This document shows, piece after piece, positions 13,456 to 52,200 of a stretch of 64,000 nucleotides of DNA; positions within the stretch are counted from its first letter, which is position 1, and the number at the start of each line of letters is the position of its first letter. Source of the DNA: a virus. The stretch spans positions 64,001 through 128,000 of IMG/VR virus record IMGVR_UViG_3300046008_000291. The stretch is one strand, 5' to 3'. Both the position numbers and the translations under genes were made by a program. The notes below the pieces were generated by a model that did not search any database, was not told where the DNA came from, and worked only from the letters and a program-made list of their open reading frames with translations.

Positions 13456-16400
13456 TTACTTGTCCTTTATTTGTTGCTCTAGCAAGTGGACCTGTTGTTG
13501 TAGTTCTTTAATAGCCGCAAACGCTAGGGCACACATCTTTTCATAGTCAACAGCCAAGTAGCCATCTTCTCTAGTGCGCACTGCTTCGGGTAACACCTGC
13601 TCAACGTCTTGTGCTATAACACCAAAGTCAGCTTTACGCATAAAGTAGTCATCTAAGCCACCGTGATCGGCAATGTATTCATCAGTCCAATCGAATAGTT
13701 TACCACCAATAGCTGTAACTTTAGCTAGTGCGTCGGGTATGTCACGCACATTTTCTTTTAAGCGTGAGTCCGAACTGTAGTAAGCTGTGATGTTGTTAGT
13801 GGCACGTATTTCACCACTAGTTCCACTTGCGGCTGTACCTACACCAAGACTTGAAACTTGAGTGCTTGAGTTTGGCACTGCGCTGATATAACCATTTGGA
13901 TTGGTACTGTTGTACGGAGTGTAACCAAGTGCAGTAGTAACTTGACCTGACGTTATACCAGTTAAGTAGCCACTTGGGTTTGTGCTGTTATAAGGAGTAA
14001 ATCCTAGTGCAGTAGTAACTTGACTAGAAGTAATTGCACCAACTAAATTTGTAGCACTTACGTTGCCGGCTGTAATATTTCCGTAGAAGGTAGCAGTAGA
14101 GCCGACATGTGTATTTGCATAGAGTATGCTCCACCAAGCTGATGTGCTACCTAAGTTTACGCTTACGTTAGCATTAGGTACCGGAGCACCACTTACTGTT
14201 AAACCAGTTAATGTACCAACACTAGTAACATTGGTCTGGGCCGCAGTTGTTAATGTTCCGGTTAAGTTAGTAGCACTTAGGTTATCTGCACCGACATTAC
14301 CTGTAAATGTTCCGCCAATTGATGTTAGGTTGCCAATTCGTAAGTTACTATAAGTAGCGTTAGTAAAGTCAATTGTTGTAGTAGGTTCTGCTGCTACATT
14401 AGCAAATAGTTTCCAAACGCCGTCTGTGGCATCACGCACAAAGCCAGTGTGTTGATATCCAGGATTAGTAAACGAACTTACGATACCGATATCTAATACA
14501 TCACCGGAGTTGTCATCGGCTAGATATATCAGCGAGTCAGCAATACTTAGATTGTTGGCATTAAATATTGTTTCAGTTCCAGCAACTTGTAAGTTACCGC
14601 TGATGTAAACATTTCCACTAAAACTTGCACCACCACTGACTACTAGTGCGCCGGTTCCTTCTCCGGTACTTTGTGTTGTATCAGTAACACGCAGATTACC
14701 ACTGGTCGATACGTTGCCTGTGAATGCTGCTCCTGCCAGTGCAGCTTTTTCTGTGTCTAATTCTGCCAGGGCATCTTGAACTGTAGTTGAACTAATTGTT
14801 CCAACCGGACTACTGTAGGTTGCATTAGCATAGACATTATAATCTGTATATGCGTCAACTTCTGCTAATACTACAGTTCCGCTAGTAACTCCTGTAGATA
14901 GTGTAACTGCTGAACTATTTGTTTCAGTATAGGCACTGTCAAACTGTCTAACACCATTGATGTATATGCGTAACTGTCCTGCACCCGGAGTGTATGTGAT
15001 TCCAGTGTATACAGTTTGTCCTGAAGTAGCAGTAAAATAAGTTCTACTGGTGCTGATAGTTGTACCAACTACGCTGCCTCCACCTGTTTCTGCACTCCAA
15101 TAGTAACTGCCTTCACCTGCAGTTTTTAATACGTAGCCACTGACTTCACCACTGGGTAATAGATTGTTTAATGCAGAACTAGTACTTGTTCCACCTGTAC
15201 CACCAGATGATATAGCCAGTGCAGATGTTAACGATATATTTGGTGCGGCCAAGGCGCCAGTAAATGTTGCACCCGATAATTGTGCATAGTTGTTTTGTAT
15301 AGTTGCTAATGTGCCTGCTTGTGCTCCAGCATTGGCCGTTAGAGTTGAATTTATTGCATCAACATACCCTTTCATAGCTGTGTTAGCAGTTACAATTGCA
15401 GTATTAGCACCGGTTACACTATTACTAATGGCTGTAATTTCATTTGATTGTATAGTATTGGCTGCATCAACATAATCTTTCATTGCTGTGTTGGCTGTAA
15501 CTATTGCAGCATTAGCACCGGTGACTGAATTAGTAACAGTGGTAATCTGCTCATCAACATAGCCTTTCATTGCTGTGTTGGCTGTGGTTAATGAACTTAT
15601 GTTTCCTGTATAAGATGGTAAGTATGCCGCTACATTTGTGTCAGTATACCCTGCTGGCAAGCCGGTTAGTTGACTGCCATCACCTATGATGTAGTCTGCA
15701 CTAACATTTCCTGTGATCGTTAACCCATCACTGCCAAATTTACCTACATTGCCGCCGGCAATAGAAACATTTACAAAGTCATCAGTTGCTTTGACCTGCG
15801 TGGTATTTGCAATAAGTATAGTCGGATCAACATCTGATGTTAGATTAATCGGAGTAGGGCTACCCGCAGGAGTAAAACTCAATGCATTGTCGACTACTTT
15901 AAGCAGTGCACCACCAATATGAATAGTACTGCCACTCATGTACAGGTCGCGCCACCACATTGAATCAGAACCCAGATCATATGTGACATTTGCTGTTGGT
16001 ATTAAATTACCGGTAATATTGACATTACCAGTAGATAATTCTACTTTAGACGTAGGTCCGTAGGTCAGTGATCCTATAGAAACTGCGCCAGCAACAATAT
16101 GTCGAATTTCAATAATATCAGTATCTTGCGGAGTTTCTGTGAATGTTATTACATTACCAGACATATTATATGATGTAAATGGTTGTTGCATTGTACCGTT
16201 GATACTAACTAGCAACCCGTCTGGAGTAGCCGAGGTTGTTAAATTATAGCTTGCAGTTAGTCCATCAGGGTAGACAGTTTCTGATGTAATTGTAGCTGCG
16301 CCCGGGTATGTCCATTCTGCGCCAGTCCAGTATTCCACAGCATCATTGTCAGTGTTAAAACGTATGTACCCTATCTCAGGATTTAGAGGACGAGTAATTA

Positions 16401-18384
16401 CATTTCCAACAGGAATGCCCAGTGCATCGGATCCAACAATTTGTACAATGCCTGTATTCTGTGCATCGATGTATATATTTCCACTTGATGAAATTGTGTT
16501 ATCAACTATTGATATGTTACCAATATTAACAGTATTGTAAAATGTTGATGCATTAGCTGTTATATTTGCAATTAATTCTGAATCAAGGGTAATTTCTAAT
16601 CTACTATTATTAGTTTCATCTATTAGATTTACTAGACTATCACCAATGACTAGGCTATTTGCAGCACCACTTAATGTTGTTGTTAGATAGTTTAATGTAA
16701 CTACATCCTGTGCGCTAACTGGATCAGCAACGTCAGATATAACACTACTATTAGCAAAAATATAACCATTAGTTGGTGCTATTGTTAAGTTAGCCACTGT
16801 TGATATAGTTGTATCAGTAAAGGTTACATTACCGACTTGAGTAAGAGTAATGTTAGCAATATTTGTAATGCGGCCTTTGCTGTCTACAGTAATTTTAGGA
16901 ATTCTATCCCATGTTTCATCATCTGCAGCACCATATGTGCCTGCAGTAACACCAGTGTCTGCTAAAGTTAATGCAATATTTGAAACATTACCACTGCCAG
17001 TAGCATCACCAGTAACTGTAATTGTAGTTTCTTGAGTTACAACACGAATATTACTTTCATAGATCTCATCAGCATTGATAATACCGGCTGTTGTAGTTCC
17101 TGTGATACCTAAATTTCCACTAATAGAAATGCTATCAACTGAGATGTTGCTTAAATTTGTTATGTTAGGCTGATTGCCTGTAAGTAATGTGCCAGTGATT
17201 GTGTTGGCTGTTATGGTGTTAGCAGTAATGTCTGTTCCGTTAACATTACCAGTAATACTAATATTTCCACCAATGGAAATGCTATCAACTGTAATATTTC
17301 CTAAATTAGAAATATAAGGTTGATTAGTTGTAAGTATCGTGCCATTTAAATTAGTTGCATTAATTGTATTAGCGTATACTGCACTCCACCATGTATCGGC
17401 ATAACCAATATTACCAGCAATGTTACTTGTTGGTACAATAGAGCTTTGCGCAATGATATTTCCACTGACTGTTAATGCTGATAATGTGCCCAATGATGTA
17501 ACATTAGTTTGGCTGGCCGTCAATAGTGTGCCAGTTAGATATGTACCACTAACATTGCCTGCGCCAACATTACCTGTTACGTCTAGTGATATTAATGTAC
17601 CTAAAGATGTAACATTAGGTTGTGCATTAGTCGCTAGTGTGCCGGTTAATACTGTACTTCCACTTGCACCGATGCTAGTAACACCGGATAATGTTGTGAT
17701 GTTTGGTTGAGCACTTGTTAGCAATGTACCTGTTAAGTATGTACCACTGACATTGCCTGCACCAACATTACCTGTTACATCGAGAGCAGTTAATATACCT
17801 GTTGATGTTATGTATGGTTGTGCTTGAGTTAGTAATGTACCAGTTAAATATGTACCACTAACATTGCCTGCACCAACATTACCTGTTACATCGAGAGCAG
17901 TTAATATACCCAGTGATGTTATATTTGGCTGTGCTGATGCAGTTACCGTAGTTGCCGATCCAATTACATTGCCGGTGATATTACTTATTATATTGCCTGC
18001 ATCAATATTACCAGTGACTGATAGGTTGCCTAACGTACCTACTGTGGTTATATTAGTTTGTATAGCTGTGGTTAACGTACCAGTGATATTTGTACTGGTA
18101 ATATTGCTAGTATAAAGGTTTCCGCTATAGATATTGCGCCAATATTTATTAGTCGCACCAATATCGTATGTTAAATTAGCTGAGGTTAATATATTGCCGG
18201 TTGTTACAAGAATGTTCCCAGTAACTTCTAATGATTCTTGGGGAGATGCCGTGTTGATACCAAGACGAAAGTTAGTAAAATCTAACTGTAATAATGTGTC
18301 ACTGTTGGTAGTGAAGCCTAGATCAAGACCTTGTCTATCTAGATTTCCTAACAGTGCTGCCCCGGGTACACGACCTATTGCCAT
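13456..18384 (-). CDS. 1642-aa long tail fibre with C-terminal Peptidase S74 intramolecular chaperone (gp37-like)
   Basis: C-terminus AYYSSDSRLKENV...FGVIAQDVEQVLPEAV...AVDYEKM...AIKEL; 37-aa tandem repeats; followed directly by a gp38-like adhesin. Confidence 0.85.
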   Translation of the reverse strand: MAIGRVPGAALLGNLDRQGLDLGFTTNSDTLLQLDFTNFRLGINTASPQESLEVTGNILVTTGNILTSANLTYDIGATNKYWRNIYSGNLYTSNITSTNITGTLTTAIQTNITTVGTLGNLSVTGNIDAGNIISNITGNVIGSATTVTASAQPNITSLGILTALDVTGNVGAGNVSGTYLTGTLLTQAQPYITSTGILTALDVTGNVGAGNVSGTYLTGTLLTSAQPNITTLSGVTSIGASGSTVLTGTLATNAQPNVTSLGTLISLDVTGNVGAGNVSGTYLTGTLLTASQTNVTSLGTLSALTVSGNIIAQSSIVPTSNIAGNIGYADTWWSAVYANTINATNLNGTILTTNQPYISNLGNITVDSISIGGNISITGNVNGTDITANTITANTITGTLLTGNQPNITNLSNISVDSISISGNLGITGTTTAGIINADEIYESNIRVVTQETTITVTGDATGSGNVSNIALTLADTGVTAGTYGAADDETWDRIPKITVDSKGRITNIANITLTQVGNVTFTDTTISTVANLTIAPTNGYIFANSSVISDVADPVSAQDVVTLNYLTTTLSGAANSLVIGDSLVNLIDETNNSRLEITLDSELIANITANASTFYNTVNIGNISIVDNTISSSGNIYIDAQNTGIVQIVGSDALGIPVGNVITRPLNPEIGYIRFNTDNDAVEYWTGAEWTYPGAATITSETVYPDGLTASYNLTTSATPDGLLVSINGTMQQPFTSYNMSGNVITFTETPQDTDIIEIRHIVAGAVSIGSLTYGPTSKVELSTGNVNITGNLIPTANVTYDLGSDSMWWRDLYMSGSTIHIGGALLKVVDNALSFTPAGSPTPINLTSDVDPTILIANTTQVKATDDFVNVSIAGGNVGKFGSDGLTITGNVSADYIIGDGSQLTGLPAGYTDTNVAAYLPSYTGNISSLTTANTAMKGYVDEQITTVTNSVTGANAAIVTANTAMKDYVDAANTIQSNEITAISNSVTGANTAIVTANTAMKGYVDAINSTLTANAGAQAGTLATIQNNYAQLSGATFTGALAAPNISLTSALAISSGGTGGTSTSSALNNLLPSGEVSGYVLKTAGEGSYYWSAETGGGSVVGTTISTSRTYFTATSGQTVYTGITYTPGAGQLRIYINGVRQFDSAYTETNSSAVTLSTGVTSGTVVLAEVDAYTDYNVYANATYSSPVGTISSTTVQDALAELDTEKAALAGAAFTGNVSTSGNLRVTDTTQSTGEGTGALVVSGGASFSGNVYISGNLQVAGTETIFNANNLSIADSLIYLADDNSGDVLDIGIVSSFTNPGYQHTGFVRDATDGVWKLFANVAAEPTTTIDFTNATYSNLRIGNLTSIGGTFTGNVGADNLSATNLTGTLTTAAQTNVTSVGTLTGLTVSGAPVPNANVSVNLGSTSAWWSILYANTHVGSTATFYGNITAGNVSATNLVGAITSSQVTTALGFTPYNSTNPSGYLTGITSGQVTTALGYTPYNSTNPNGYISAVPNSSTQVSSLGVGTAASGTSGEIRATNNITAYYSSDSRLKENVRDIPDALAKVTAIGGKLFDWTDEYIADHGGLDDYFMRKADFGVIAQDVEQVLPEAVRTREDGYLAVDYEKMCALAFAAIKELQQQVHLLEQQIKDK
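17750..17910. repeat. 111-bp-period tandem repeat in the 1642-aa fibre (50-bp identical core 17750-17799 = 17861-17910)
   Basis: Direct comparison; encodes ILTALDVTGNVGAGNVSGTYLTGTLLT units. Confidence 0.85.
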
Positions 18385-26832: not shown

Positions 26833-29400
26833 TTAATAGCTGTTCTGCAATATTCCTGACGATATAGCATTATTTTTTTGCATTGTAGTTAAAATACTTT
26901 GCAACAGAGTAATTTGTTGTTGTTCTGCTGGATTAGCAGTAGCAGAAGGTTTTTCCATAGCTTTTTTAAGTGCTTCAGCATTAGTAGCCGGTATACTATG
27001 TAATTTTGCCTGTTCAGCGGCTAACTGTTGTGCTGACACACTAGTCAACGGTTTAGGTGCAGTTGATTGAGTAGTTGCTCCGGTAGCAGCTGCTGCAACT
27101 GTGCTTGCAGCAGACTCGTCTTTCATAATGGCTTTGCCTAATTTCTCGCCACCTTCACTACCACCCCAGTATCCTAATGCTCCGCCTATTAGCCCGCCAA
27201 CTACTGTACCCACTGGTCCTGCTACTAGTGTACCTAATGCGGCACCAGCTGTGGCACCACCCCAAGCTCCACCGGCGCCTAATGCGGCACTACCAACTAT
27301 ACCGCCTTCTTTTTCGCGTTTTTGACCTTTGGTTAATGTTGCATCATTTTCTGTATCGTAGATATCACTTGCGGCCATAGCAGTTCCAAATACTGCACCA
27401 GCAATACCACCAAATTTTCCAAACGTCTTTGCACTGCTAAGAGCAGATGATGCAGTAGGAGCTTTGGCAAATTTACCCGAGGCATCACGATAACGGCCAT
27501 CTTTATCGTATCCACCTGCGCCTGGGCCGCCTATACCACCTGGCATACCTTTTAGTCCTTTAAGCAACGACGGACCTACTAGTTGCAACACTCCAAGAAT
27601 TGGTGCCGCCAATGAAAGTAGTAAAGATTTCCACGGATTGTTTTCAACCATTGTAGCTAAACTATCTAATGATTCTACAGCTTTAAAGGCAGCTTCGTAT
27701 GATGCTTGAAGAGCTGTACTAAATGAATCTAAATGGGTTAATGCAATTGCTTGCATTCTTACTGCCATTTCTTGTTGTTGTGCCATTAATTCAACAGCTA
27801 CGCCGCCTGCGCCTTTTGCTCCTGCGGCTTGTTCAGCAGCTATTTTAGCTCTTTCTTCTTCGGATTTTGCAAAATTTGCTGAATATTGAGTTGCTCTTAA
27901 ATTTATAGCACTTGCAGCTTGCGCATCGGCACTAGTTGCCATTGCCATGCCTTTATTTGCCATTGCAGCATCGTGGGTCGATTGCATAGTGTCTTTTTGT
28001 AATCGAGCTGTTTGTTCCGCAGACAGTGTGCCATCTTGTGCTGCTTTAAATGTTTTAGTATTAAACTCAGCAATGCCTCTATTAGTTGCTTGTGCTATAG
28101 CAAGGTCTTTACTAATAACACTACCGTAAATCATATTTTCACGGAATGCTCGTTGCTGATCAGCATTCATGTTCATCATCGCATCATTGATGCGTGCTTG
28201 TTCAGTAGCCGATTTGCCATCTAATATCTGTTGGAATGCTAATGTATCGTTATCTTGGCGAAGTTTTTCTTGCTTAGATTTTGTATCTTCTCCGGTTAGA
28301 TCAGACAGCACTTTCATATTTTTTGCATATTCTTGAGTCTGTGCTGCTATTTGTTCGTTTGATGCATTTAGTCTTCTCGAAGGACCAGCCATAATAGCCA
28401 TTGTTGTTGCATACGCATCGGCTTGTTCTTCTAAGCCCATGCCCAGAGCAAACATTCCGTTACGTGCTGCATCGCCGCCTTTTTGCATAGCAGCAGCCAT
28501 ACGTTTACTGCCTTCTGCTACTCCAAGACCCGATCTTGCAAAAGTATCTCTATTTTGAACAACTACTTTAGAAAACTGTTCTAATTTCATACCGGCACTT
28601 AATGCAGTATCGGTCATGCTGATCATACCACCACTATATACTGCTCCAACTGCTGACATCGATTGGAACCCAGCGATTAGTTCCTTAGTTTGTGCAAGCA
28701 TAAACCCAATACCTGCTTTAGCTAGTTCGGATACTGTATTGCTTAATGCACCTAGTGCTTCACCTGCGATTGTGGCACCAATGCCAAATTTACCTACATT
28801 GCCGCCGGCACCAGCTGTTGCAGCACCAAACGATTTCAAAGCGTTTGCGCTACCTTGATTGGCAGTGTTAACTAGATCAACACCAGCAGTCATCATCGAT
28901 GTAGCTACGTCAAATGAATCACCACCGCGTAGTGCTGTAGTAGTTGCACCTTTAAATGCATTAGCGGCACCAACAGTTAGTACCCCAGCCATGTTCCACA
29001 TGCTGTCTTTTAATGCTGCATGAGCTTTATTACGAGCATTTAGTGCTTCAAGATCAGCCTTGGCATCAAGTAGAGCTTGCTTTTTACCTTGATCTGACGT
29101 TTTATTAACTTCGTCTCTGAGAGTATTTAATTGGTCTGATAATTCTTCGGCACTAACTTCGCCTTTGTTGATGCTCTTTTTAAGATCATCCATAGATTTT
29201 TTGATTTCAACAGCCGATTTTTTCATCGTACTATTGAATTTATCAACACCACCTGCTAACTCTAATATCTTTTTCTTGGCTTCAACCCCAGAGAGATTCA
29301 TTTTTTTAGCAACATCTGCATAGATCTCCATTTGAGCTCGTGCTTTTTCTGATGCATTAGCAAGGGCTTCGATCCTCTGGTCTAATTCTTTTTCATCCAT
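26833..29400 (-). CDS. Tape-measure-like protein
   Basis: 855 aa, Ala/Gly-rich alpha-helical, with a hydrophobic glycine-zipper block (GALGAGGAWGGATAGAALG...GGLIGGALGYWGG); adjacent to hub chaperones gp26/gp51. Confidence 0.6.
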   Translation of the reverse strand: MDEKELDQRIEALANASEKARAQMEIYADVAKKMNLSGVEAKKKILELAGGVDKFNSTMKKSAVEIKKSMDDLKKSINKGEVSAEELSDQLNTLRDEVNKTSDQGKKQALLDAKADLEALNARNKAHAALKDSMWNMAGVLTVGAANAFKGATTTALRGGDSFDVATSMMTAGVDLVNTANQGSANALKSFGAATAGAGGNVGKFGIGATIAGEALGALSNTVSELAKAGIGFMLAQTKELIAGFQSMSAVGAVYSGGMISMTDTALSAGMKLEQFSKVVVQNRDTFARSGLGVAEGSKRMAAAMQKGGDAARNGMFALGMGLEEQADAYATTMAIMAGPSRRLNASNEQIAAQTQEYAKNMKVLSDLTGEDTKSKQEKLRQDNDTLAFQQILDGKSATEQARINDAMMNMNADQQRAFRENMIYGSVISKDLAIAQATNRGIAEFNTKTFKAAQDGTLSAEQTARLQKDTMQSTHDAAMANKGMAMATSADAQAASAINLRATQYSANFAKSEEERAKIAAEQAAGAKGAGGVAVELMAQQQEMAVRMQAIALTHLDSFSTALQASYEAAFKAVESLDSLATMVENNPWKSLLLSLAAPILGVLQLVGPSLLKGLKGMPGGIGGPGAGGYDKDGRYRDASGKFAKAPTASSALSSAKTFGKFGGIAGAVFGTAMAASDIYDTENDATLTKGQKREKEGGIVGSAALGAGGAWGGATAGAALGTLVAGPVGTVVGGLIGGALGYWGGSEGGEKLGKAIMKDESAASTVAAAATGATTQSTAPKPLTSVSAQQLAAEQAKLHSIPATNAEALKKAMEKPSATANPAEQQQITLLQSILTTMQKNNAISSGILQNSY

Positions 29401-29410
29401 GGTTTTAACC

Positions 29411-29418
29411 TATAAATA
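29411..29418 (+). promoter_or_regulatory. Late promoter TATAAATA for gp26
   Basis: Perfect consensus on the + strand. Confidence 0.8.
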
Positions 29419-29432
29419 TAGTATATCAATTA

Positions 29433-29440
29433 TATTTATA
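29433..29440 (-). promoter_or_regulatory. Late promoter TATAAATA for the tape-measure-like gene
   Basis: Perfect consensus on the - strand. Confidence 0.8.
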
Positions 29441-29451
29441 GGAATTAAACC

Positions 29452-30306
29452 ATGGCTCAAATCAATAACGCAAATCCGTTGGCTAAACACTTTCGCCAAC
29501 CTGCGCTGTATATCAAGTTAACCAGTGAAGGTCGGTTTTGGAAAGAAGGCTCATTGGAACTACCTGTAACAGGCGAACTTCCTGTATATCCAATGACCAC
29601 TAGAGATGAAATTACACTACGCACACCAGATGCACTGATCAGTGGTACTAGTGTAGTCGATGTTATACAAAGTTGCTGTCCAAGTATTAAAAACGCTTGG
29701 GATATGCCTAGCGTTGATGTAGACACTACATTAATTGCTATCCGTATTGCTAGTTACGGTCCTACAATGGCTATCGGATCAACTTGCCCTGAGTGTGGAA
29801 CAGAACACGATTATGATGTAGACTTAACTGCTACCTTAGGTTCCGTATCGATGCCAGATTATTCAAAAACTGTTGAACTACCCGATGGATTATCTGTTAG
29901 CCTTAAACCATTGACCTATGCTCAAATTAGCAAATCCGGTAACACTGTGTTTGAAGAAGAAAAGTTAATTCAAACACTGGCAGATCCAGATCTTGATGCC
30001 GAAGTTAGAAAAGTTAGATACACCGAACATATTAGTAAGATGGTTGAATTAAACATTGAAACTATAACTAATTGCACAGCAGCTATTACCACAGAAGACG
30101 GTGATATTGTAACAGACACAAAATTTATTAGAGAGTACTACACAAATTCTGAATCAACTGTGTTGCGTACAATACAACAGACAATTGAAGAATTAGCTAA
30201 GGCAATTAGTATTAAACCAGTTGATGTAGTATGTACTGAATGTTCAAAAGAATTTAAATTAGCCATTGATTTCGACTACGCAAGTTTTTTCGCTCGCGGC
30301 TTTTGA
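29452..30306 (+). CDS. gp26: Baseplate hub assembly protein
   Basis: FRQP.LYIKL.S.G, VYPMTTRDEITLRTPDAL, DMPSVDVD..LIAIRIASYG, two CxxC pairs (CPEC, CTEC), ends FF. Confidence 0.85.
   Translation: MAQINNANPLAKHFRQPALYIKLTSEGRFWKEGSLELPVTGELPVYPMTTRDEITLRTPDALISGTSVVDVIQSCCPSIKNAWDMPSVDVDTTLIAIRIASYGPTMAIGSTCPECGTEHDYDVDLTATLGSVSMPDYSKTVELPDGLSVSLKPLTYAQISKSGNTVFEEEKLIQTLADPDLDAEVRKVRYTEHISKMVELNIETITNCTAAITTEDGDIVTDTKFIREYYTNSESTVLRTIQQTIEELAKAISIKPVDVVCTECSKEFKLAIDFDYASFFARGF
30285..30291 (+). promoter_or_regulatory. Candidate -1 ribosomal frameshift heptamer T TTT TTC
   Basis: X XXY YYZ pattern in phase with gp26 codons (AGT TTT TTC). The -1 frame is open from 30270 and continuous with the gp51-like ORF. 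Confidence 0.6.
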
Positions 30307-30521
30307 CCTTAGATAACGATGCTATCGTAGAATTGCTTGATTCCTACGATAAAGAGTCAAAAGCCTTTAGAGAAGAAGCGTTACGTATGTGTTGGTATAT
30401 GCGTGGTGGTTTAAGTTACGAAGATGCAATGTTTTTAACACAGCAAGAAAGAGATATTATCGGAAAGATTATTAAAGATAATATGGAAACGACCCAAAAA
30501 AGTGGCCTCCCGTTTTTTTAA
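30303..30521 (+). CDS. gp51: Baseplate hub assembly catalyst-like protein
   Basis: ALRMCWYMRGGLSYEDAMFLTQQERDII; only a TTG start overlapping the gp26 TGA, with no clear SD. Confidence 0.7.
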   Translation: MTLDNDAIVELLDSYDKESKAFREEALRMCWYMRGGLSYEDAMFLTQQERDIIGKIIKDNMETTQKSGLPFF

Positions 30522-30525
30522 TATT

Positions 30526-30549
30526 AAAGCACATTTATTGTGCTTTTTT
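30526..30549 (+). terminator. Rho-independent terminator (possibly bidirectional)
   Basis: AAAGCACA-TTTAT-TGTGCTTT followed by TTT. Confidence 0.75.
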
Positions 30550-30550
30550 A

Positions 30551-31167
30551 TTGACTATGATATACGTAAGCTAAGGTCATTATAAGAGCAAAAGACATTT
30601 AAGTACATTTAAGGAATGTCTAAAGACATTCGCATTTCGCTTGCGCTCATGCCTTTTCTTCTAATCTAATTAATCTAATTTACTTTGATATGTACTGTAA
30701 TGCTTTTGACTTTAGAACTGCTTCATCCAGATTATAGTCATACTTCACCCATTACAGGCAAAGTAAAACAGAGCGACTTCATCCGAGTGCTTCATCATAC
30801 TAACTAAAAGAGATTATATTCATTTACACGGAAGCGGTCGCCCTGTACTCCCTACTCTTGCTTCTTGCGACGGTTGATGCATAATCCGTAGTTAGCCAAA
30901 CTATGTCATCATATGGGTTGTATCTTTTTCACAGTGCCCAAATCATTCGGTTTTTACACCTAATTTTTATATTGTTGATTCGCTTTTTATAGCACAATAC
31001 ACGGTCGCCATTCAGTGTGTAGTCTAGTCTACACGTTCCACGTGCGGCCATTACGCGAGCACGATCTCCTCTGAATACAGAACTTAATCTGCAATAGGGC
31101 TTTTAACTACATTTACTGCTGAGTTGGAATTTGTTTCTGTGAGAGTGACTTGGTGTCTAGGAGCTAT
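30551..31167 (-). ncRNA. Candidate large structured non-coding RNA (~620 nt), family unassigned
   Basis: No ORF of 60 aa or more; own sigma70-like promoter; nested long helices (30679-87/30759-67, 9 bp; 30695-702/30750-57, 8 bp); long-range helix 30888-97/31098-110; several hairpins; G-U pairs favour the minus strand. Confidence 0.6.
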
Positions 31168-31173
31168 GTGTTT

Positions 31174-31202
31174 ATTGTAATACGTTTAGTGTTGTTGGTC
31201 AA
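31174..31202 (-). promoter_or_regulatory. Sigma70-type promoter TTGACC-N17-TACAAT firing into the non-coding region
   Basis: -35 at 31197-31202 overlaps the TGA of the GIY-YIG gene; 17-nt spacer; -10 at 31174-31179. Confidence 0.75.
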
Positions 31203-31639
31203 CTGGTTTTATTAATTTTTAAATCTTTTACGGAACCCTTGCCTAATTTAATTTGTATAATACCATTGTAGTTATCTTCTCTCAACAGTACTTCTTCCAT
31301 AAATTGATAATGCGCTTCCATGTAGTTAGTTTCACCACGACTTAGACATAGATGTATAATTTCGCGTTTAAACTGTTCCTTGCCTAAAGCTAGGATATCT
31401 GCTACTAGTCGACTCGAAGAACCCCAATAGTCTTTCCAATCAGTTTCAATTGTTTCTAGACGTTTGTTCTTCTTGCCTTTTAACGGTGGTCTTTTTTTGA
31501 TAGTTTTAAAATACTTACGGCCAACATAATCGTAGCCGTTAGTAAGGTTGGTTATTCTATAAATGAAACCGTAGTATGCACCAATATCCTCAGAGTCAAA
31601 TATTACACCATTGTACGTCCAAGGATATTCGTATGTCAT
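31199..31639 (-). CDS. Compact stand-alone GIY-YIG nuclease-domain protein
   Basis: GFIYRITNLTNGYDYVGRK (GIY-x10-YVG), YWGSS, conserved Glu (MEAHYQ), YNG; 146 aa with no appended DNA-binding domain. Confidence 0.8.
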   Translation of the reverse strand: MTYEYPWTYNGVIFDSEDIGAYYGFIYRITNLTNGYDYVGRKYFKTIKKRPPLKGKKNKRLETIETDWKDYWGSSSRLVADILALGKEQFKREIIHLCLSRGETNYMEAHYQFMEEVLLREDNYNGIIQIKLGKGSVKDLKINKTS

Positions 31640-31646
31640 ACGTTAT

Positions 31647-31832
31647 TTATTTTGCAGCCGCTGCATTTTTCTTCTCTTGGATTTCTGCACGACGAGCTTT
31701 GGCCAATTTAGCCAAGTCACCTAATGCACCACGAGCACGTGCCGCTGCGGCTTTAACACCTTTAACTTCAAATTTTTCTGATTCTGCTACGTATAATTCT
31801 ACTGCTGCTAAAATATCATCATGAATTGCCAT
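31647..31832 (-). CDS. Histone H1-like (Hc1-family) small basic DNA-binding protein; probable start MAIHDD at 31832
   Basis: KGVKAAAARARGAL.DLAKLAKARRAEIQEKKN pattern; AAGGAG RBS before 31832. Confidence 0.7.
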   Translation of the reverse strand: MAIHDDILAAVELYVAESEKFEVKGVKAAAARARGALGDLAKLAKARRAEIQEKKNAAAAK

Positions 31833-31887
31833 GTTTACTTCTCCTTGTTGTTGTGTGTATTTAACCACCCTGTATTGGATGGTAAAA

Positions 31888-33660
31888 TTAAATTACTTCT
31901 ACGTCAGTACTATATGATGTAAACCCATTTTCTTTGGTTACAGTCATAATGTTATTAACTCGCCCCGCAAGTTCATCTTTATGCGAAACAAGCCAAATAC
32001 TTTTCTCATGCTCTCTAGACATTTTTTTAAGTATACCCAATGAACTTTCAACTCCGCTACTGTCCATGCCGCTGTCAATAAGCTCATCAATGAATAATAA
32101 GTTAATAGGATTGTATAAACTTTCCCAGACATCACGGAATGCCCACGATAAACTTAATATCAAGCGATTGCGTTCACCACGTGATAAGTTATCAAAGTCT
32201 AGTTCACGGCCTAACTCTGTAATTTCTACACTTAAATCGTTTAAGAATGTTACTGTATGTGGCAATCCTATACGATCTAAGTATTGACTTAGGCGTGCGT
32301 TTAAATGCGACAAGTTTTGATCAATAATACGTTTACGAATAAAGCTATCTTTGTTAGTTAATAGTTTCAACAAGAAGTCTTGATGTTCTTTTAACTTAAC
32401 TAGCTCGTTCATAGTAGTATAATCAGTTTCTACTAATGCAGTCTGTGTCATCTCTTCGATTTGTTCATCATATGGATCAACTTCTGTAGCCTTAGCGGCC
32501 AACTGTGTTTCTAAACTAGTAATAGAACCCTTGTGATGAAACGCATCTGCTTCTTTATCGTAATATACTCGAGGTTGCGCACCAAGAGGACCAATTTCTG
32601 TTTTAGCACCTATCAGCGCCGTTAATTGTGTTTGATCAGTTTGGTACTGTGTAGTAGCAGTTTCGAGTGATGTACGTTTAGCCGCTAACACTTCTTCGTG
32701 TTTGCTATCGTGAAAATGTTGACCGCAAGCATAACAAGTATGTGCTTCGAGGTCGGCAATTTCTTTAGTAACTTTATCTATAGTCTTTTGTTCACGGGCA
32801 ATATCTGCTTCGCTACGCAAAATGGCCTTGGTCAAATCATCTAAGTCTTTACGCTGTTGGTTGTAAGCAGTAAGCGCAGTGTGTGCCGCTAGCTCTTGTT
32901 CAATATCAATTTTACGTAGTTCTGTAAGGGCATTTTGTAGTTTTACTGTGTCATCTGCATGCTTGGTAGTCCACATAGTTTGCCGGCGTTTTAAGCTGTC
33001 AATTTGCTCTTGAATACGACCATTTGCGTCGGTTATAGCCTTAATATTGAACTCTTCTTGCTGTATTGCATCCTTAGTAGCACGACCCAACTCTTTAAGT
33101 TTTTCTGCCTTTTCACTTAAGACAGTGATACCAAGTAGCTGTTCAATAATTTCACGTTGGTCGTTAGATTTAAGACTAAGGAATGGTTCGGTGTAGGTAT
33201 TAAGCGCAACAATGTGTTTGAACATATTGTGCGACATGCTTAACAAACGTTCAATTTCAGCCTGTGTTTCTCTACTATCGCCTTGACTTTCGTCGGTAAT
33301 TTCTTTTTCTTCATCACCTACATAAAACTTCATTATGTTTGGCTTACGACCACGTTCAATCTTATAGTCTTGCCCGTTATGTTCAAATTCAACAGTAACC
33401 AACATGTTCTTACCGTTAGTTTTGTTAATTAAATTATCACGTTTGATATTGGTTAATGCCTGCCCAAACAGACTGTAGCTTAAGGCATTGATAATAGTTG
33501 TTTTACCAGTGCCATTACGTGCGCCACTATCATCGCCGCCTAAGTCAACGTTAACACCTAATACTAATGTCAGGTCGTTGCGGTCAAAGTCCACAGCTTG
33601 TGTTGCATTACCAACACTCATGAAGTTCTTGACTGTAAGATTTTTTATTTTAAATGTCAT
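31888..33660 (-). CDS. gp46: Recombination endonuclease ATPase subunit (Rad50/SbcC-like)
   Basis: KNFMSVGN, Walker A NGTGKTT, coiled coil with CYAC hook, signature LSRGE, Walker B LLFIDELID, LVSHK. Confidence 0.95.
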   Translation of the reverse strand: MTFKIKNLTVKNFMSVGNATQAVDFDRNDLTLVLGVNVDLGGDDSGARNGTGKTTIINALSYSLFGQALTNIKRDNLINKTNGKNMLVTVEFEHNGQDYKIERGRKPNIMKFYVGDEEKEITDESQGDSRETQAEIERLLSMSHNMFKHIVALNTYTEPFLSLKSNDQREIIEQLLGITVLSEKAEKLKELGRATKDAIQQEEFNIKAITDANGRIQEQIDSLKRRQTMWTTKHADDTVKLQNALTELRKIDIEQELAAHTALTAYNQQRKDLDDLTKAILRSEADIAREQKTIDKVTKEIADLEAHTCYACGQHFHDSKHEEVLAAKRTSLETATTQYQTDQTQLTALIGAKTEIGPLGAQPRVYYDKEADAFHHKGSITSLETQLAAKATEVDPYDEQIEEMTQTALVETDYTTMNELVKLKEHQDFLLKLLTNKDSFIRKRIIDQNLSHLNARLSQYLDRIGLPHTVTFLNDLSVEITELGRELDFDNLSRGERNRLILSLSWAFRDVWESLYNPINLLFIDELIDSGMDSSGVESSLGILKKMSREHEKSIWLVSHKDELAGRVNNIMTVTKENGFTSYSTDVEVI

Positions 33661-49254: not shown

Positions 49255-52200
49255 ATGGCGACAAAAAAGACTTCAAATTTTCTTCCTACCATATTTCAAA
49301 CCGATACTAACAATAAGTTTTTGTCGGCAACAATGGATCAGTTAGTAACTGAGCCAAATTTAAGAAATATACACGGCTATATCGGAAGAACATTTGCTCC
49401 AACTTATAAAAGTAAAGACAGCTATGTAATCGAAAATTCAGCTGAAAGACAAAAGTATCAACTTGAACCAGGTATTGTTGTTCGCAATGATCGACAAGAA
49501 ATTACATTTTTTGCCAGTTATACTGATCTGTTAAACAAAATTGAATATTATGGTGGGCTAACTGCAAACCATGATAGATTATTTGACGACGAATATTATA
49601 GCTTTGACCCACAAATATCATTTGATAAATTTATTAATTTTAGTCAATACTACTGGCTTGCAGATGGTCCAAACGCTGTTGATGTTAACACCAGCGGAGT
49701 TGATTTAGAAAAAACCTATAATGTTGTTCGTAATGTAAGTTCGTCTCGTTACGAGTTTACATCTACTAGCCCGACAAAAAATACTCTTACTCTAGCACGT
49801 GGTGGCCGATACACATTTGAAGTTGATCAATTGGGTAATCAATTCTGGATACAAACTGAATTAGGTGTAGATGGTCTAGTAAATGCAACTCCGACAGTTA
49901 GTACACGTGATGTATTCGGAGTTATTAACAACGGTGCAGACTCGGGTACAATTACATTTAATGTGCCGCAGGCAAGTGCCCAAGACAGATATGTGTTAAT
50001 GAATGTAGTGGCCAACGTAGAGTACGCAGTGCCTCTTGCCTATGCTGATATACAAAATCATACTGTTAGTCAATTCCTTGCTGCGTTTCCAGGCTATGCA
50101 GGTGTTGCTACTCAACTCAACGGTAAAACTGCAATATTCATTGATCAAAATTTATTAACAAACCGTGGTGAAGAAGCATGGACTGTACCTAATGTTTACG
50201 ATGGCAACGGTGATATTGTGTCTGGCTATAATGCCGGCGAGGTAATACCCGAGGCACAACGTTACGGAGTTTGGCGTGTACAATTTGCAGACAGTGGTGA
50301 TATCAACGATCCATTAATTCGATTGGCCTGTGTACAAGATGTACAAATCAACGAAAAGGTCTATATCAGATCTGGTGTAGTTAATGCCAATAAAGAATTC
50401 TTTAAAGATTATGATGGATTTTTTCATGTTGTTCCTGTGATATCAAGTATACAAGATACTTTGTACTTTCAAGATGGTAACAATCCGTCTATCTATGGTA
50501 CAATTAAACTAGTTGATATCGCTGGCTGGTCTATAGATGTTGAAAATGATATTTTAGGAAAAACTACATACACCAGTCCCAATGGAGTGGTATTTACTAG
50601 CGGATTGAAAATAAGATTTGGTACTGATGCTATCCCAGCAACATATCAGGATAAGGAATATTATGTAGAAGGAGTAGGGTCTGCTACAGGCATACAATTA
50701 GTTGATACAACATTATTAGTTACACCTGAACCCTACAATGATGAGATTATCACTAATTATCCATTGAATAGAATTAGTTTAAGTGCAGTTACTACAGATG
50801 TAATCCCTGCAGGTACTGTTATTAACATTGGCACTATTGAAGTTGAAGTATATTATGAAGTTACAGTTGGATCTTTGTACATTGTTACATTGAGCGATGT
50901 ATCTTCAATAGTAAATGGATCGGCTATAACTGGAACAGGCATTGCCAGCGGAACATCAGTAATCAATACACGTCGAGACACTGTGTATCCAGAATATATT
51001 ACCATTAACAGAGCTAGTGTAGATTTAAATGCATGGTCGAGAAATAATCGATGGTTCCATCGAGATATAATCACTGCCACTGCTACCTATAACAATGAAC
51101 AATATATATTTGACCAAGACCTTCGCGCACGTCGTCCAATTGTACAGTTTGAATCAGACCTGCAATTGTTCAATTACGGCAGGATTGGAAAAGCACCAGT
51201 TGATATATTAGATACTACAACACAAGATGCATTTAATAATTTGAATGGACAGGTATTTTCTGTAGCGTTTGGAGTCACATTATTTGATGGCATGCGAGTT
51301 ATATTTGCCAACGATGTTGATCCGTTGGTTCGTAATAAAATTTTTGTACTTAATTTAGTGCAAACTGCAATTGATGGTGAAGGATTATTAACTGGGCCCA
51401 AATATATAAATTTAAATCCAGCTGCCGATGGTGCAGTTGAAACTTACGATTCTGTAGTTATAACTGATGGTGTTTACAAAGGCACTCAGTGGTGGTACAA
51501 TGGTGATACTTGGATAGCTAGTCAGCAAAAAACTAGCCTACAACAAGATCCGTTATTTGACATGTACGATAGTGCTGAACAGAGTTTTTCGCTTTATCCG
51601 TTGAGTACGTTTACCGGCACACGATTATTTGGCTACAACAGATCAAGTACCGGCACTATTTCTGATTCAGTATTGGCCTTTCCGCTGACTTACACATCAT
51701 TCCAAACTCAGGGAAATATTGAATTCATCAATTACTTTGATACTGATACGTTTAGTTATGTAGCTAATCAAACTCAACTTACTGAACGAATTGCCACAGG
51801 GTTCCTACATCAAATAGTAGATAGATACACATCACTACCAAAAAATAATTGGAATACAGTTACTGAAAAAAATAATCAATATCAATTGATTACCTATGTA
51901 TACGATGGTATTAATAGTCCATTTAAAATTGATGTCACTGTACCAGATGCAGTTACGATACCATATGTTAAAGTTTATAAAAATAATGTATTCTTAAAAA
52001 CATCTCAATGGACTTTAACAAATGGAGCATTGACATTATCCACTGCACCTACTATAGGTGATAAGATCGACATTCTAGTCTATAGTAATGAAGTAAGTGC
52101 GCTTGGGCAATACCAGATACCAAAAAATCTAGAGCTCAATGCACAAAATACTGATTTATCAACATTGACATTGGGTCAAATCAGAAATCACCTAGTGGAA

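What the first reader, a model, noticed from the sequence alone, without database searches (positions are those of the whole stretch)
30551..31202. Candidate ~620-nt structured non-coding RNA with its own promoter
This is the only large ORF-free gap in a gene-dense window. Seen directly: a near-consensus sigma70 promoter (TTGACC-N17-TACAAT, minus strand, predicted start ~31167) and a terminator-like hairpin at the far end (30526-30549). Nested perfect helices pair 30679-87 with 30759-67 (9 bp), 30695-702 with 30750-57 (8 bp), 30707-11 with 30736-40, and 30718-20 with 30728-30. A long-range 6+4-bp helix pairs 30888-97 with 31098-110. A multiloop is closed by 31010-15/31071-76 and contains the hairpin 31017-22/31029-34; there is also a 7-bp hairpin 30614-20/30625-31 and a GCAA tetraloop. 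G-U pairs in several stems work only on the minus strand. Inference: a large phage ncRNA of unknown function, in the size class of ROOL/GOLLD/OLE, though I do not recognise it as any of them.
Basis: partly seen in the sequence, partly recalled or inferred. Interest (0 to 1): 0.85.

Follow-up and report, generated by a model that had tools for sequence, protein, structure and literature searches.

The report
Large folded RNA of jumbo phages
The gene-free gap encodes a real, intricately folded RNA of about 485 bases from a widespread family of freshwater giant phages and Polynucleobacter islands, of which only a 141-base piece was catalogued, and it carries two 7-base segments that match each other but differ between genomes, which suggests a programmable recognition role.

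Summary

It is a structured RNA on the minus strand. The conserved part runs about 31098-30614. The same about 240-nt pseudoknotted core occurs once in each of 100 of 100 tested IMG/VR contigs (E 1e-7 to 1e-33). Covariation is strong: 78% of cells paired against 40-46% in slid controls.

The sigma70-like promoter lies in a roughly 100-nt insert specific to this lineage. In relatives the RNA abuts the stop codon of a small nuclease gene: GIY-YIG in 83 of 109 loci, PD-(D/E)XK in 12.

In the sister subtype the 5' domain is Rfam Polynucleobacter-1 (RF01718), an orphan motif. The window itself does not score to that model. Polynucleobacter chromosomes carry a diverged version beside a catalytic-domain-only tyrosine recombinase.

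The most striking feature is two 7-nt segments, 'ACUC-GGAUGAA' and 'AUCU-GGAUGAA'. They are identical within a genome and vary between genomes. I found no complementary partner.

Function is unknown. My best guess, at about one in three, is a bivalent sequence-recognition RNA that works with the neighbouring DNA enzymes.

Earlier notes of this scan found the same family on other DNA.

The parts
31199..31639 (-). Upstream gene p146: a 146-aa GIY-YIG nuclease with the catalytic domain only (SegE/DenA-like)
   Evidence: Pfam PF19835, E = 1e-34. A homologue lies directly upstream on the same strand in 83 of 109 family loci. In 12 other loci a PDDEXK_15 nuclease takes this place.
31099..31205 (-). 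Lineage-specific leader carrying the sigma70-like motif: -35 at 31202-31197, -10 at 31179-31174, predicted start about 31167
   Evidence: Promoter scan, 10 of 12 positions. The segment is absent from relatives L011, L055, L051, L115, L123, L150 and L081, where the RNA abuts the nuclease stop codon.
30990..31098 (-). 5' domain: hairpin 31091-88/31081-78, then a three-way junction closed by 31076-71/31015-10 that holds hairpins 31063-59/31045-41 and 31034-29/31022-17
   Evidence: All four helices keep pairing through compensatory changes in eight type-A relatives. The domain does not score to RF01718.
30717..30985 (-). Conserved pseudoknotted core. Helices: P1 30960-58/30951-49; Py 30944-41/30733-30; P2 30940-37/30917-14; Px 30915-11/30743-39; P3 30905-897/30888-80; pk1 30896-89/30806-799; pk2 30871-67/30841-37; P4 30859-55/30812-08; P5 30852-48/30834-30; P5b 30828-25/30818-15; P6 30763-56/30750-43
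   Evidence: nhmmer and covariance-model matches in every family locus. Pair counts on an unfitted MAFFT alignment give 78.4% paired against 40-46% when slid, and a covariation score of 0.359 against 0.127 or less. pk2 is counted, and P5 and P6.
30778..30788 (-). M1: ACUC followed by the variable 7-mer GGAUGAA, displayed in a hairpin loop
   Evidence: It is identical to M2 in the window and at about 99% of the variable positions across 75 family members, with mutual information of 0.9-1.0 bit.
30722..30732 (-). M2: AUCU followed by the same 7-mer GGAUGAA, immediately 3' of helix Py
   Evidence: M2 switches together with M1 in 5 of 5 well-supported independent pairs of sequences on the tree, never the opposite way.
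30614..30652 (-). 3' domain: hairpin 30652-49/30635-32 with the conserved loop GAGCGCAAGCGAA, then hairpin 30631-25/30620-14
   Evidence: Both hairpins recur with covarying stems in phage members and in Polynucleobacter chromosomal copies.
30526..30546 (.). Terminator-like hairpin between the convergent RNA and the gp51/p72 operon
   Evidence: 8-bp stem with the T-run on the + strand. Whether it also ends the minus-strand RNA is not known.

Best explanation
Shown: the gap is the gene for a large structured RNA on the minus strand. The conserved part is about 485 nt, and the transcript could reach about 640 nt if the local promoter and terminator are used. It has three parts: a 5' three-way-junction domain, a roughly 240-nt core with two pseudoknots, and two 3' hairpins. 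It belongs to a family carried by uncultured Rak2-like jumbo phages. A diverged form occurs on Polynucleobacter chromosomes. Only the 5' domain of the sister subtype was catalogued, as RF01718.

Inferred: the RNA acts in trans as a scaffold that displays two single-stranded 7-nt specificity segments, M1 and M2. Each sits 3' of a short pyrimidine tract (ACUC or AUCU). Each is proposed to bind one copy of the same short nucleic-acid sequence by base pairing, making the RNA a bivalent guide or bridge. It would serve the small DNA-cutting or DNA-joining enzyme encoded beside it: a GIY-YIG or PD-(D/E)XK nuclease in phages, and a catalytic-domain-only tyrosine recombinase in bacteria. Seven bases is also the usual length of the crossover region that two partner sites of a tyrosine recombinase must share (established knowledge of that enzyme family). 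That would explain why M1 must equal M2.

That this is a real structured RNA I hold at about 0.93. The confidence below is for the mechanism.
For: Family and fold:
- A core HMM finds the element in about 140 viral loci.
- Model R1 hits once in each of 100 of 100 loci.
- Covariation is reported.

Twin segments:
- Across 75 sequences under 90% identical, the 7-mer after ACUC equals the 7-mer after AUCU. It varies as GGAUGAA, AGAUGAU, GGAUAAU, GCAUAAU and others, with deviant types in L024, L059 and L013.
- The fewest changes needed on the tree are about 20-30 per position. In 5 of 5 supported independent pairs M2 goes the same way as M1.
- In 12 Polynucleobacter copies the flanks and the intervening hairpin are nearly constant. 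The 7-mer differs between copies (AUCAAAA, AGCGAAA, AACAAAA, AGAGAAA, GGAGAAA) and M1 = M2 in 9 of the 12.
- Two copies in one genome carry different 7-mers.

Neighbours:
- Three unrelated enzymes without recognisable DNA-binding domains sit next to the RNA. GIY-YIG is upstream in 83 of 109 loci, PDDEXK_15 in 12 loci, and a 188-198-aa tyrosine recombinase is downstream in 12 of 12 bacterial loci.
Against: - No target was found. There is no complement of the 7-mer in the RNA or its flanks. It is not enriched in flanking DNA or in the 177-kb genome.
- Seven bases give little specificity.
- The segments do not covary with residues of p146, p72 or gp51 beyond background.
- The nucleases do not need the RNA. 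p146 homologues are core genes of cyanophages where no gap follows them. PA5oct has a PDDEXK_15 gene, yet R1 finds no core in PA5oct, 121Q, RaK2 or Atu_ph07.
- The same 7-mer types occur beside either nuclease type.
- Frequent concerted G/A switching is awkward if an external partner must change too.
- Expression, RNA ends and any processing are untested.
- Three bacterial copies have 1-2 mismatches between M1 and M2.
Confidence: 0.33

Rival explanations
1. A stand-alone ornate RNA, in the manner of GOLLD and ROOL, whose job has nothing to do with the neighbouring enzymes. The nuclease and recombinase genes are neighbours by synteny, or are selfish genes that settle beside a conserved RNA gene as Seg and Mob endonucleases do beside tRNA genes in T4 (established knowledge of T4). 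M1 and M2 are two equivalent sites for one protein, for processing, or for self-assembly.
For: - The fold is large, pseudoknotted and highly conserved.
- The nucleases occur without the RNA elsewhere.
- The upstream nuclease is replaced by a non-homologous one while the RNA stays. That is what a landing site for homing endonucleases looks like.
- An earlier scan note (e1-3731804, not tested here) judged the recombinase independent of the RNA.
- GOLLD and ROOL are phage-borne and form RNA-only assemblies (PMC12286853).
Against: - It does not explain why the two 7-mers must be identical yet are free to vary.
- No residue of the neighbouring proteins covaries with them. That test covers only three proteins.
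- The adjacency is very regular: about 95 of 109 phage loci and 12 of 12 bacterial loci.
Confidence: 0.3
2. The two identical 7-mers are realignment sites for a strand being copied. A nascent product ending in the complement of one site (or the same sequence, for RNA polymerase on DNA) re-pairs at the other. The 47-61-nt unit is then skipped or copied repeatedly. The logic is that of telomerase templates, DRT2 rolling-circle reverse transcription, or take-off and landing in T4 gene 60.
For: - Identity with free drift needs no third partner. That fits about 20 concerted switches with nothing else covarying.
- Seven bases is about the length of a primer-template duplex (established knowledge of polymerases).
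- The unit of 47-61 nt holds a conserved hairpin.
- In nearly all of the 75 aligned members the 7-mer reads as a codon followed by UGA or UAA, as at the gene 60 take-off site.
Against: - No reverse transcriptase is found in the 177 kb held, which is about half the genome.
- Concatenated units have no conserved open frame: none in 70 of 75 in sense and none in 57 of 75 in antisense.
- No ORF runs into M1.
- The identity extends past the codon.
- No member has one or three units: R1 gives exactly one full hit per locus.
Confidence: 0.1
3. A cis-acting 3' untranslated element of the nuclease mRNA, or an antitoxin-like RNA. It would stabilise the message, time its expression or restrain the nuclease.
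For: - In most members the RNA starts within about 10 nt of the nuclease stop codon on the same strand, with no room for an intergenic promoter.
- Weinberg et al. also noted the motif downstream of one gene family (PMC2864571, supplement).
Against: - About 485 nt with two pseudoknots is far more than known 3' stabilisers need.
- The same RNA follows two unrelated nucleases and precedes a recombinase in bacteria. In L052 the PDDEXK gene is downstream of the RNA.
- The window lineage has inserted a promoter-like leader between the gene and the RNA.
Confidence: 0.12
4. The repeats act as DNA: two directly repeated recombinase core sites or iterons about five helical turns apart. The RNA-level structure would be secondary.
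For: - A tyrosine recombinase is adjacent in bacteria.
- Partner sites of such enzymes need identical 6-8-bp crossover regions (established knowledge).
Against: - The phage loci fetched show no recombinase gene beside the RNA.
- The segment between the repeats is an integral, covarying part of the RNA fold: Px, Py and P6.
- No variant lacks the unit.
- No consistent terminal repeats flank the bacterial module.
- Earlier scan notes found no sign of a DNA switch (not tested here).
Confidence: 0.05

Closest known systems
Polynucleobacter-1 RNA motif (Rfam RF01718; Weinberg et al. 2010, PMC2864571)
   Same: It lies at the same locus and belongs to the same family. In type-B members the 141-nt motif scores 82-121 bits and ends about 10 nt before the core defined here. 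It comes from freshwater samples and sits downstream of a gene with a cyanophage homologue, as its authors noted. Its function is unknown.
   Different: The catalogued motif is only the 5' third of the RNA. The 240-nt pseudoknotted core, the twin 7-mers and the 3' hairpins are not part of it. The window and 16 of 16 tested type-A members do not reach its threshold. Their 5' domain is a different-looking three-way junction.
GOLLD and ROOL RNAs (large ornate RNAs, often phage-borne; PMC12286853)
   Same: They share the size class, the complex fold, carriage by phages, freshwater or lake origin for GOLLD, and an unknown function.
   Different: There is no sequence or structure match to their Rfam models. 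They sit near tRNA genes rather than nuclease genes. Nothing like the twin covarying 7-mers has been described for them.
IS110/IS1111 bridge and seek RNAs (PMC11208158)
   Same: These are structured RNAs encoded next to a recombinase. They have two programmable loops that share a core sequence because donor and target must share it.
   Different: Their partner is a DEDD/RuvC-like recombinase, and none is present here. Their guides are split, are longer, and differ between the two loops. Their targets are known, whereas none was found here. The resemblance is one of logic only.
T4 gene 60 translational bypass element
   Same: It has matched short sequences flanking a gap of about 50 nt. A stop codon follows the first copy. 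A hairpin lies in the gap. The host is a T4-type phage and the element is linked to a homing endonuclease.
   Different: No reading frame enters M1. The identity covers 7 nt, not 3. The second copy is also followed by the stop. The unit is part of a covarying RNA fold.
Type III antitoxin RNAs (ToxI and relatives)
   Same: They are repeated RNA units bounded by identical short sites, they form a pseudoknot, and they are encoded next to a nuclease.
   Different: Those units are whole tandem repeats cut by an RNase toxin encoded downstream. Here only 7-11 nt are repeated inside a large unique fold, and the neighbouring enzymes are of DNA-enzyme families.

Membership tests
Extended Polynucleobacter-1 family (this report's core) | The roughly 240-nt core sequence with GGUAY-NGG-NNNN-CCGCYUC, ACUC-M, the P6 hairpin, AGURUGAC and AUCU-M in order | tested here: met
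   BLASTN of the window against loci found through gp51 hits distant members (L013, L019-L021, L028) at 67-87% identity. The core HMM and model R1 score the window at 202 and 104 bits, but the window is in both seeds.
Extended Polynucleobacter-1 family (this report's core) | Helices kept through compensatory changes | tested here: met
   The structure was drawn partly from the window sequence, so the slid controls flatter it somewhat.
Extended Polynucleobacter-1 family (this report's core) | M1 and M2 are identical within a genome | tested here: met
   GGAUGAA at 30784-78 and at 30728-22.
Rfam RF01718 Polynucleobacter-1 | Score at or above the gathering threshold of 37 bits | tested here: not met
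   No match in the window at gathering scores or at E <= 10. None in 16 type-A relatives. All 12 tested type-B relatives score 82-121 bits.
Rfam RF01718 Polynucleobacter-1 | Lies downstream of the GOS11034 / P-SSM2 locus 218-like gene | tested here: inconclusive
   p146 has homologues in T4-like cyanophages, annotated 'NAD synthetase', T4-GC 213. I could not check that this is the same family the authors meant.
GOLLD / ROOL / OLE / HEARO / raiA | Match to the family's covariance model | tested here: not met
tRNA / tmRNA | tRNA-like domain, tag reading frame | tested here: not met
   ARAGORN finds none in the window.
IS110-type bridge RNA | Adjacent DEDD (RuvC-like) recombinase, and two loops with split guides complementary to the element ends and to the target | tested here: not met
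   The neighbours are GIY-YIG, PDDEXK_15 or a tyrosine recombinase. No complementary site was found nearby.
Gene-60-type translational bypass | An open reading frame that enters the take-off codon and resumes after the landing codon | tested here: not met
   No ORF crosses the region in any of three codes. A stop follows the second copy as well.
Protein-coding gene in a recoded genome | A long open frame when TGA or TAG is read as sense | tested here: not met
   The longest frame inside the gap is 92 codons with TGA=W and 73 with TAG=Q. The rest of the window is open under code 11.

The most novel reading that the evidence does not exclude
One RNA scaffold serves as the programmable specificity subunit for three unrelated minimal DNA enzymes: a GIY-YIG nuclease, a PD-(D/E)XK nuclease and a catalytic-domain-only tyrosine recombinase. 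Its twin 7-nt segments would pair with the two DNA partners or strands. With the recombinase, they would spell out the 7-bp crossover sequence that both sites must share. That would make it an RNA-guided tyrosine recombinase, which I found nowhere in the papers searched.
Probability: 0.12. Interest if true: 0.95.

Novelty: new variant of a known kind. Interest (0 to 1): 0.77.

Why it matters
It turns a 16-sequence orphan motif from 2010 into a large RNA class of about 450-500 nt with two pseudoknots. More than a hundred diverse members are already in hand, from freshwater jumbo phages and Polynucleobacter chromosomes. That is enough for structure determination and for designing experiments.

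The twin 7-mers are identical within a genome and hypervariable between genomes, and they sit inside an otherwise fixed scaffold. This is the signature expected of a programmable element, and it gives a direct handle: swap one 7-mer, or swap both.

If the RNA does work with the neighbouring minimal enzymes, it would be a new kind of RNA-directed DNA cutting or recombination. If it does not, it joins GOLLD, ROOL and OLE as another large phage-borne RNA whose biology is open.

Tried and rejected
1. Alternative genetic codes (TGA=W, TAG=Q): no long frame opens.
2. BLASTN of the window region and of a type-B core against 50,697 phage records: no match.
3. Model R1 on whole genomes of 121Q, RaK2, Atu_ph07 and PA5oct, and with filters off on their gp51 neighbourhoods: only chance-level hits. 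R1 covers only the 3' half of the core and also misses the true Polynucleobacter copies, so this does not show absence.
4. PA5oct ncRNA004 (PMC7318152) lies elsewhere in that genome and is unrelated.
6. A cis complement of the 7-mer was not found.
7. The 7-mer is neither enriched nor avoided in the genome or in flanking DNA.
8. The 7-mers do not covary with p72, p146 or gp51 residues beyond background.
9. Pairing of M1 with M2 is rejected. The GCAU variants would break it, and A variants give a C-A mismatch (reasoned).
10. I first read L033/L035/L041 as showing a nuclease+RNA cassette moving between phages. The mosaic turned out to be a swapped tape-measure+gp51 module.
11. The idea of a never-ending ORF on concatenated units is rejected.
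12. No reverse transcriptase is present in the genome held.
13. No consistent terminal inverted repeats surround the bacterial module.
14. A third 7-mer-like site inside an AAA ATPase gene of L283 and L281 was judged to be chance.
16. The genome contigs pattern scan gave mostly chance hits in high-GC genomes. Only 8 loci, all from freshwater MAG bins, are real members.
Full report
**Setting.** The window is bases 64001-128000 of a 177.7-kb IMG/VR virus record judged about half complete. Around the finding lie T4-type genes:
- a gp51/gp26-like baseplate hub gene, 29452-30306 (+);
- a conserved 72-aa gene, p72, 30303-30521 (+);
- on the minus strand, a Rad50-like gp46 gene (31888-33660), an Hc1 histone-like gene (31647-31868) and a 146-aa GIY-YIG gene, p146 (31199-31639).

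The nearest cultured relatives of the hub protein, at 28-32% identity, are Rak2-like jumbo phages such as RaK2, 121Q, PA5oct and Atu_ph07.

**The observation.**
- Window 30522-31198 has no ORF of 60 codons or more. No long frame opens when TGA or TAG is read as sense.
- The promoter-like TTGACC-N17-TACAAT and the hairpin at 30526-46 exist.
- The minus strand folds better than shuffled sequence (z = -2.95). The plus strand does so less clearly (z = -1.97).
- Rfam gives nothing for the window, and ARAGORN finds no tRNA or tmRNA.

**Related loci.**
- Loci were first collected through the hub protein and through a 36-nt piece of the gap. In relatives whose hub protein is only 37-50% identical, the layout is the same: gp51 and p72 on one strand, a gap of 450-540 nt, then a p146 homologue converging on them. 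The gaps align, with a strongly conserved stretch of about 240 nt.
Nearly all of them are true members by HMM.
- 81 core sequences are under 90% identical to one another.
- A covariance model of the 3' half of the core (R1, 148 positions) hits exactly once in each of 100 tested loci, with E from 1e-7 to 1e-33.

**Structure.** I drew a structure from the window and from visible compensatory changes, then counted it on a plain MAFFT alignment of 75 members that was not fitted to any structure.
- 78.4% of cells are paired, against 40-46% when the partners are slid.
- 590 cells show changes on both sides, against 132-196 in the slid controls.
- The covariation score is 0.359, against 0.127 or less. 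No shuffle out of 500 reached the observed score.

The core holds hairpins P1, P2, P3 and P6. It also holds a P4/P5 junction with an optional hairpin P5b, two long-range helices (Px and Py), and two pseudoknots.
- pk1 pairs the P3 loop with the strand after P4.
- pk2 pairs CCGUYRN with the P5a loop, and shows UA/CG, GC/AU and UA/GC exchanges.
- On the model-fitted alignment of 100 members, P6 is 98.7% paired with four compensating pairs.
- Frequent G-U pairs in conserved helices fix the strand as minus.

In the window's own subgroup (type A) the 5' domain is a three-way junction.

After an A-rich linker come two hairpins. The first has the conserved loop GAGCGNNAGCGAA. Both recur with covarying stems.

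The helix 30888-97/31098-110 competes with P3 and pk1. They may be alternative pairings confined to this lineage, but the family does not support them.

**Ends.** In seven type-A relatives the first conserved helix begins within about 10 nt of the nuclease stop codon. The window and its close kin carry an extra segment of roughly 100 nt (about 31200-31100), and the sigma70-like motif lies inside it. An independent promoter is therefore not a family trait. The conserved RNA in the window runs from about 31098 to 30614.

**Neighbours.**
- A p146 homologue lies directly upstream on the same strand in 83 of 109 loci.
- In 12 others the gene in that place is a roughly 170-aa PDDEXK_15 endonuclease, PF24608.
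- p146 homologues are core genes of T4-like cyanophages, and no gap follows them there.
- A mosaic that I first read as a mobile nuclease+RNA cassette is in fact a swapped tape-measure+gp51 module.

**Link to a catalogued motif.** Scanning other members against Rfam gave strong matches to RF01718, Polynucleobacter-1 (141 nt), at 82-121 bits. The matches end about 10 nt before my core. This holds for all 12 tested type-B loci and for none of 16 type-A loci. Weinberg et al. described that motif from 16 sequences. They noted that its 3' half is not always detected and that it lies downstream of a gene with a cyanophage homologue. They did not find it in any purified phage (PMC2864571, supplement). 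The catalogued motif is therefore the 5' domain of the type-B form of this larger RNA.

**Bacterial copies.**
- RF01718 is present in 16 of 141 Polynucleobacter genomes searched, on chromosomes, sometimes twice.
- R1 does not score those copies, but they follow the same plan. After the 5' domain come ACUC plus a 7-mer, then a conserved hairpin, then AUCU plus the same 7-mer. The GAGCGNNAGCGAA hairpin and a second hairpin close the RNA.
- All 12 loci examined share one arrangement. A DUF6641 gene diverges upstream. A 188-198-aa tyrosine recombinase consisting of the catalytic domain alone lies 0.5-1.2 kb downstream on the same strand. An AAA ATPase gene lies beyond it.
- Among bacterial and archaeal genome records, the phage-type core occurs only on contigs of freshwater MAG bins. 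These are Bacteroidota bins, including Flavobacteriales and two Haliscomenobacter contigs of 148 and 183 kb, plus one Polynucleobacter bin. They are probably mis-binned phage DNA and give only a weak hint at hosts.

**The twin 7-mers.**
- In the window, ACUC-GGAUGAA (30788-30778) and AUCU-GGAUGAA (30732-30722) lie 56 nt apart.
- Across 75 members the two 7-mers are the same in each genome but differ between genomes (GGAUGAA, AGAUGAA, GGAUGAU, AGAUAAU, GCAUAAU, GGAUGAG and others). Mutual information between the copies is 0.9-1.0 bit at three positions. No other column of the core exceeds 0.42 bit.
- Deviant members keep the rule with quite different sequences: L024 GCGAAUAG, L059 GCGAAKAUAUC, L013 CYACAGAGAG.
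- On a tree built without these columns, the fewest changes needed are about 20-30 per position. In all 5 well-supported independent pairs the second copy changed with the first. The short alignment gives a weakly supported tree, and the sign test cannot reach 0.05 with 5 pairs.
- In Polynucleobacter the flanks and the intervening hairpin are nearly invariant while the 7-mer varies. M1 equals M2 in 9 of 12 copies. Two copies in one genome differ in their 7-mer.
- They are direct repeats, so they do not pair with each other.
- I found no complement in the RNA or within 700 nt of it. There is no enrichment in flanking DNA or in the genome, and no coupling to residues of p72, p146 or gp51.
- The unit is 47-61 nt with no preference for multiples of three. 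Concatenated units have no conserved open frame.

**Reading.** That this is a genuine structured RNA of a large family is, in my view, settled (about 0.93). Its function is not.

Identity of two short segments that drift freely means either that both are read by one partner or that a strand made on one must re-pair on the other.

I rank first, at about one in three, a bivalent base-pairing role linked to the adjacent enzymes. My reasons are these. Three unrelated enzymes, each a catalytic domain without a recognisable DNA-binding part, sit beside the same RNA. The 7-mers behave like a programmable insert in a fixed scaffold. Seven bases is the crossover length that two tyrosine-recombinase sites must share.

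Against this reading, the nucleases exist without the RNA elsewhere, no target was found, and 7 nt is short.

The main rival is an autonomous ornate RNA whose neighbours are incidental. A strand-realignment mechanism explains the free concerted drift best, but it has no polymerase or product to point to.

**Limits.**
- Expression could not be tested.
- R1 covers only part of the RNA and misses known distant members, so 'not found' in cultured phages is weak evidence.
- The structure was derived partly from the window sequence.
- The 7-mer tables rest on alignments and regular expressions that mis-placed a few rows.

**Prior notes of this scan.** Earlier follow-up notes on other genomes reached the same reading, that this RNA extends Polynucleobacter-1, for the bacterial islands and for a jumbo phage. 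I reached the bacterial link independently through before reading them.

Noticed in passing
window 30789-30795: A third copy of GAUGAAG lies just upstream of M1 (UAUGAUGAAGCACUCGGAUGAAG). It occurs in the window lineage only. Other members have exactly two copies.
   Followed up: partly
window 30679-30767: The 3' tail is complementary over 25 bp (9+8+5+3) to the P6/M2 region. The pairing is partly kept in L055 and L123, with one apparent compensating change in the P6 loop. It may be a lineage-specific alternative fold that would undo P6.
   Followed up: partly
L004:6072-6878 (also L003 and L012); corresponds to window about 30523-30573: An insertion of about 750-800 nt carrying a 253-aa ORF on the gp51 strand sits between p72 and the RNA's 3' end in otherwise 92-95% identical phages.
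   Followed up: no
window 26885-30215: L035 and its kin are about 90% identical to the window on both sides. Across the 855-aa tape-measure/hub gene and gp51, however, protein identity is only about 43%. This is a swapped structural module, with one junction inside p72.
   Followed up: partly
window 31647-31868: A 73-aa homologue of the chlamydial/Bacteroidota histone-like protein Hc1 (PF07432, E = 2e-9) lies between gp46 and the nuclease gene.
   Followed up: no
window 49255-62769, 996-8000, 13456-18384: Three giant ORFs of 4504, 2334 and 1642 aa. I did not examine them.
   Followed up: no
L165:5037-5874 (Escherichia phage 121Q): An unannotated 840-nt gap lies between the p72 homologue and the EndoVII gene. 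On the minus strand it holds two GAUGAGCA repeats and a UCAGGAUGAUUAAG stretch. R1 does not match it. It may be a remote analogue.
   Followed up: partly
L272:2167-3680 and 4172-4342 (Pseudomonas phage PA5oct, record 75666-77180 and 77671-77841): A stretch of about 1.5 kb with only tiny annotated ORFs lies next to a PDDEXK_15 gene. An unannotated p72 homologue lies beside the hub gene. The published RNA-seq annotation lists no ncRNA there.
   Followed up: partly
L209 and L220 (contigs of 148 and 183 kb in one Haliscomenobacter MAG): Two long contigs in one bacterial bin each carry the phage-type RNA core. They are probably jumbo-phage DNA binned with a possible host.
   Followed up: no
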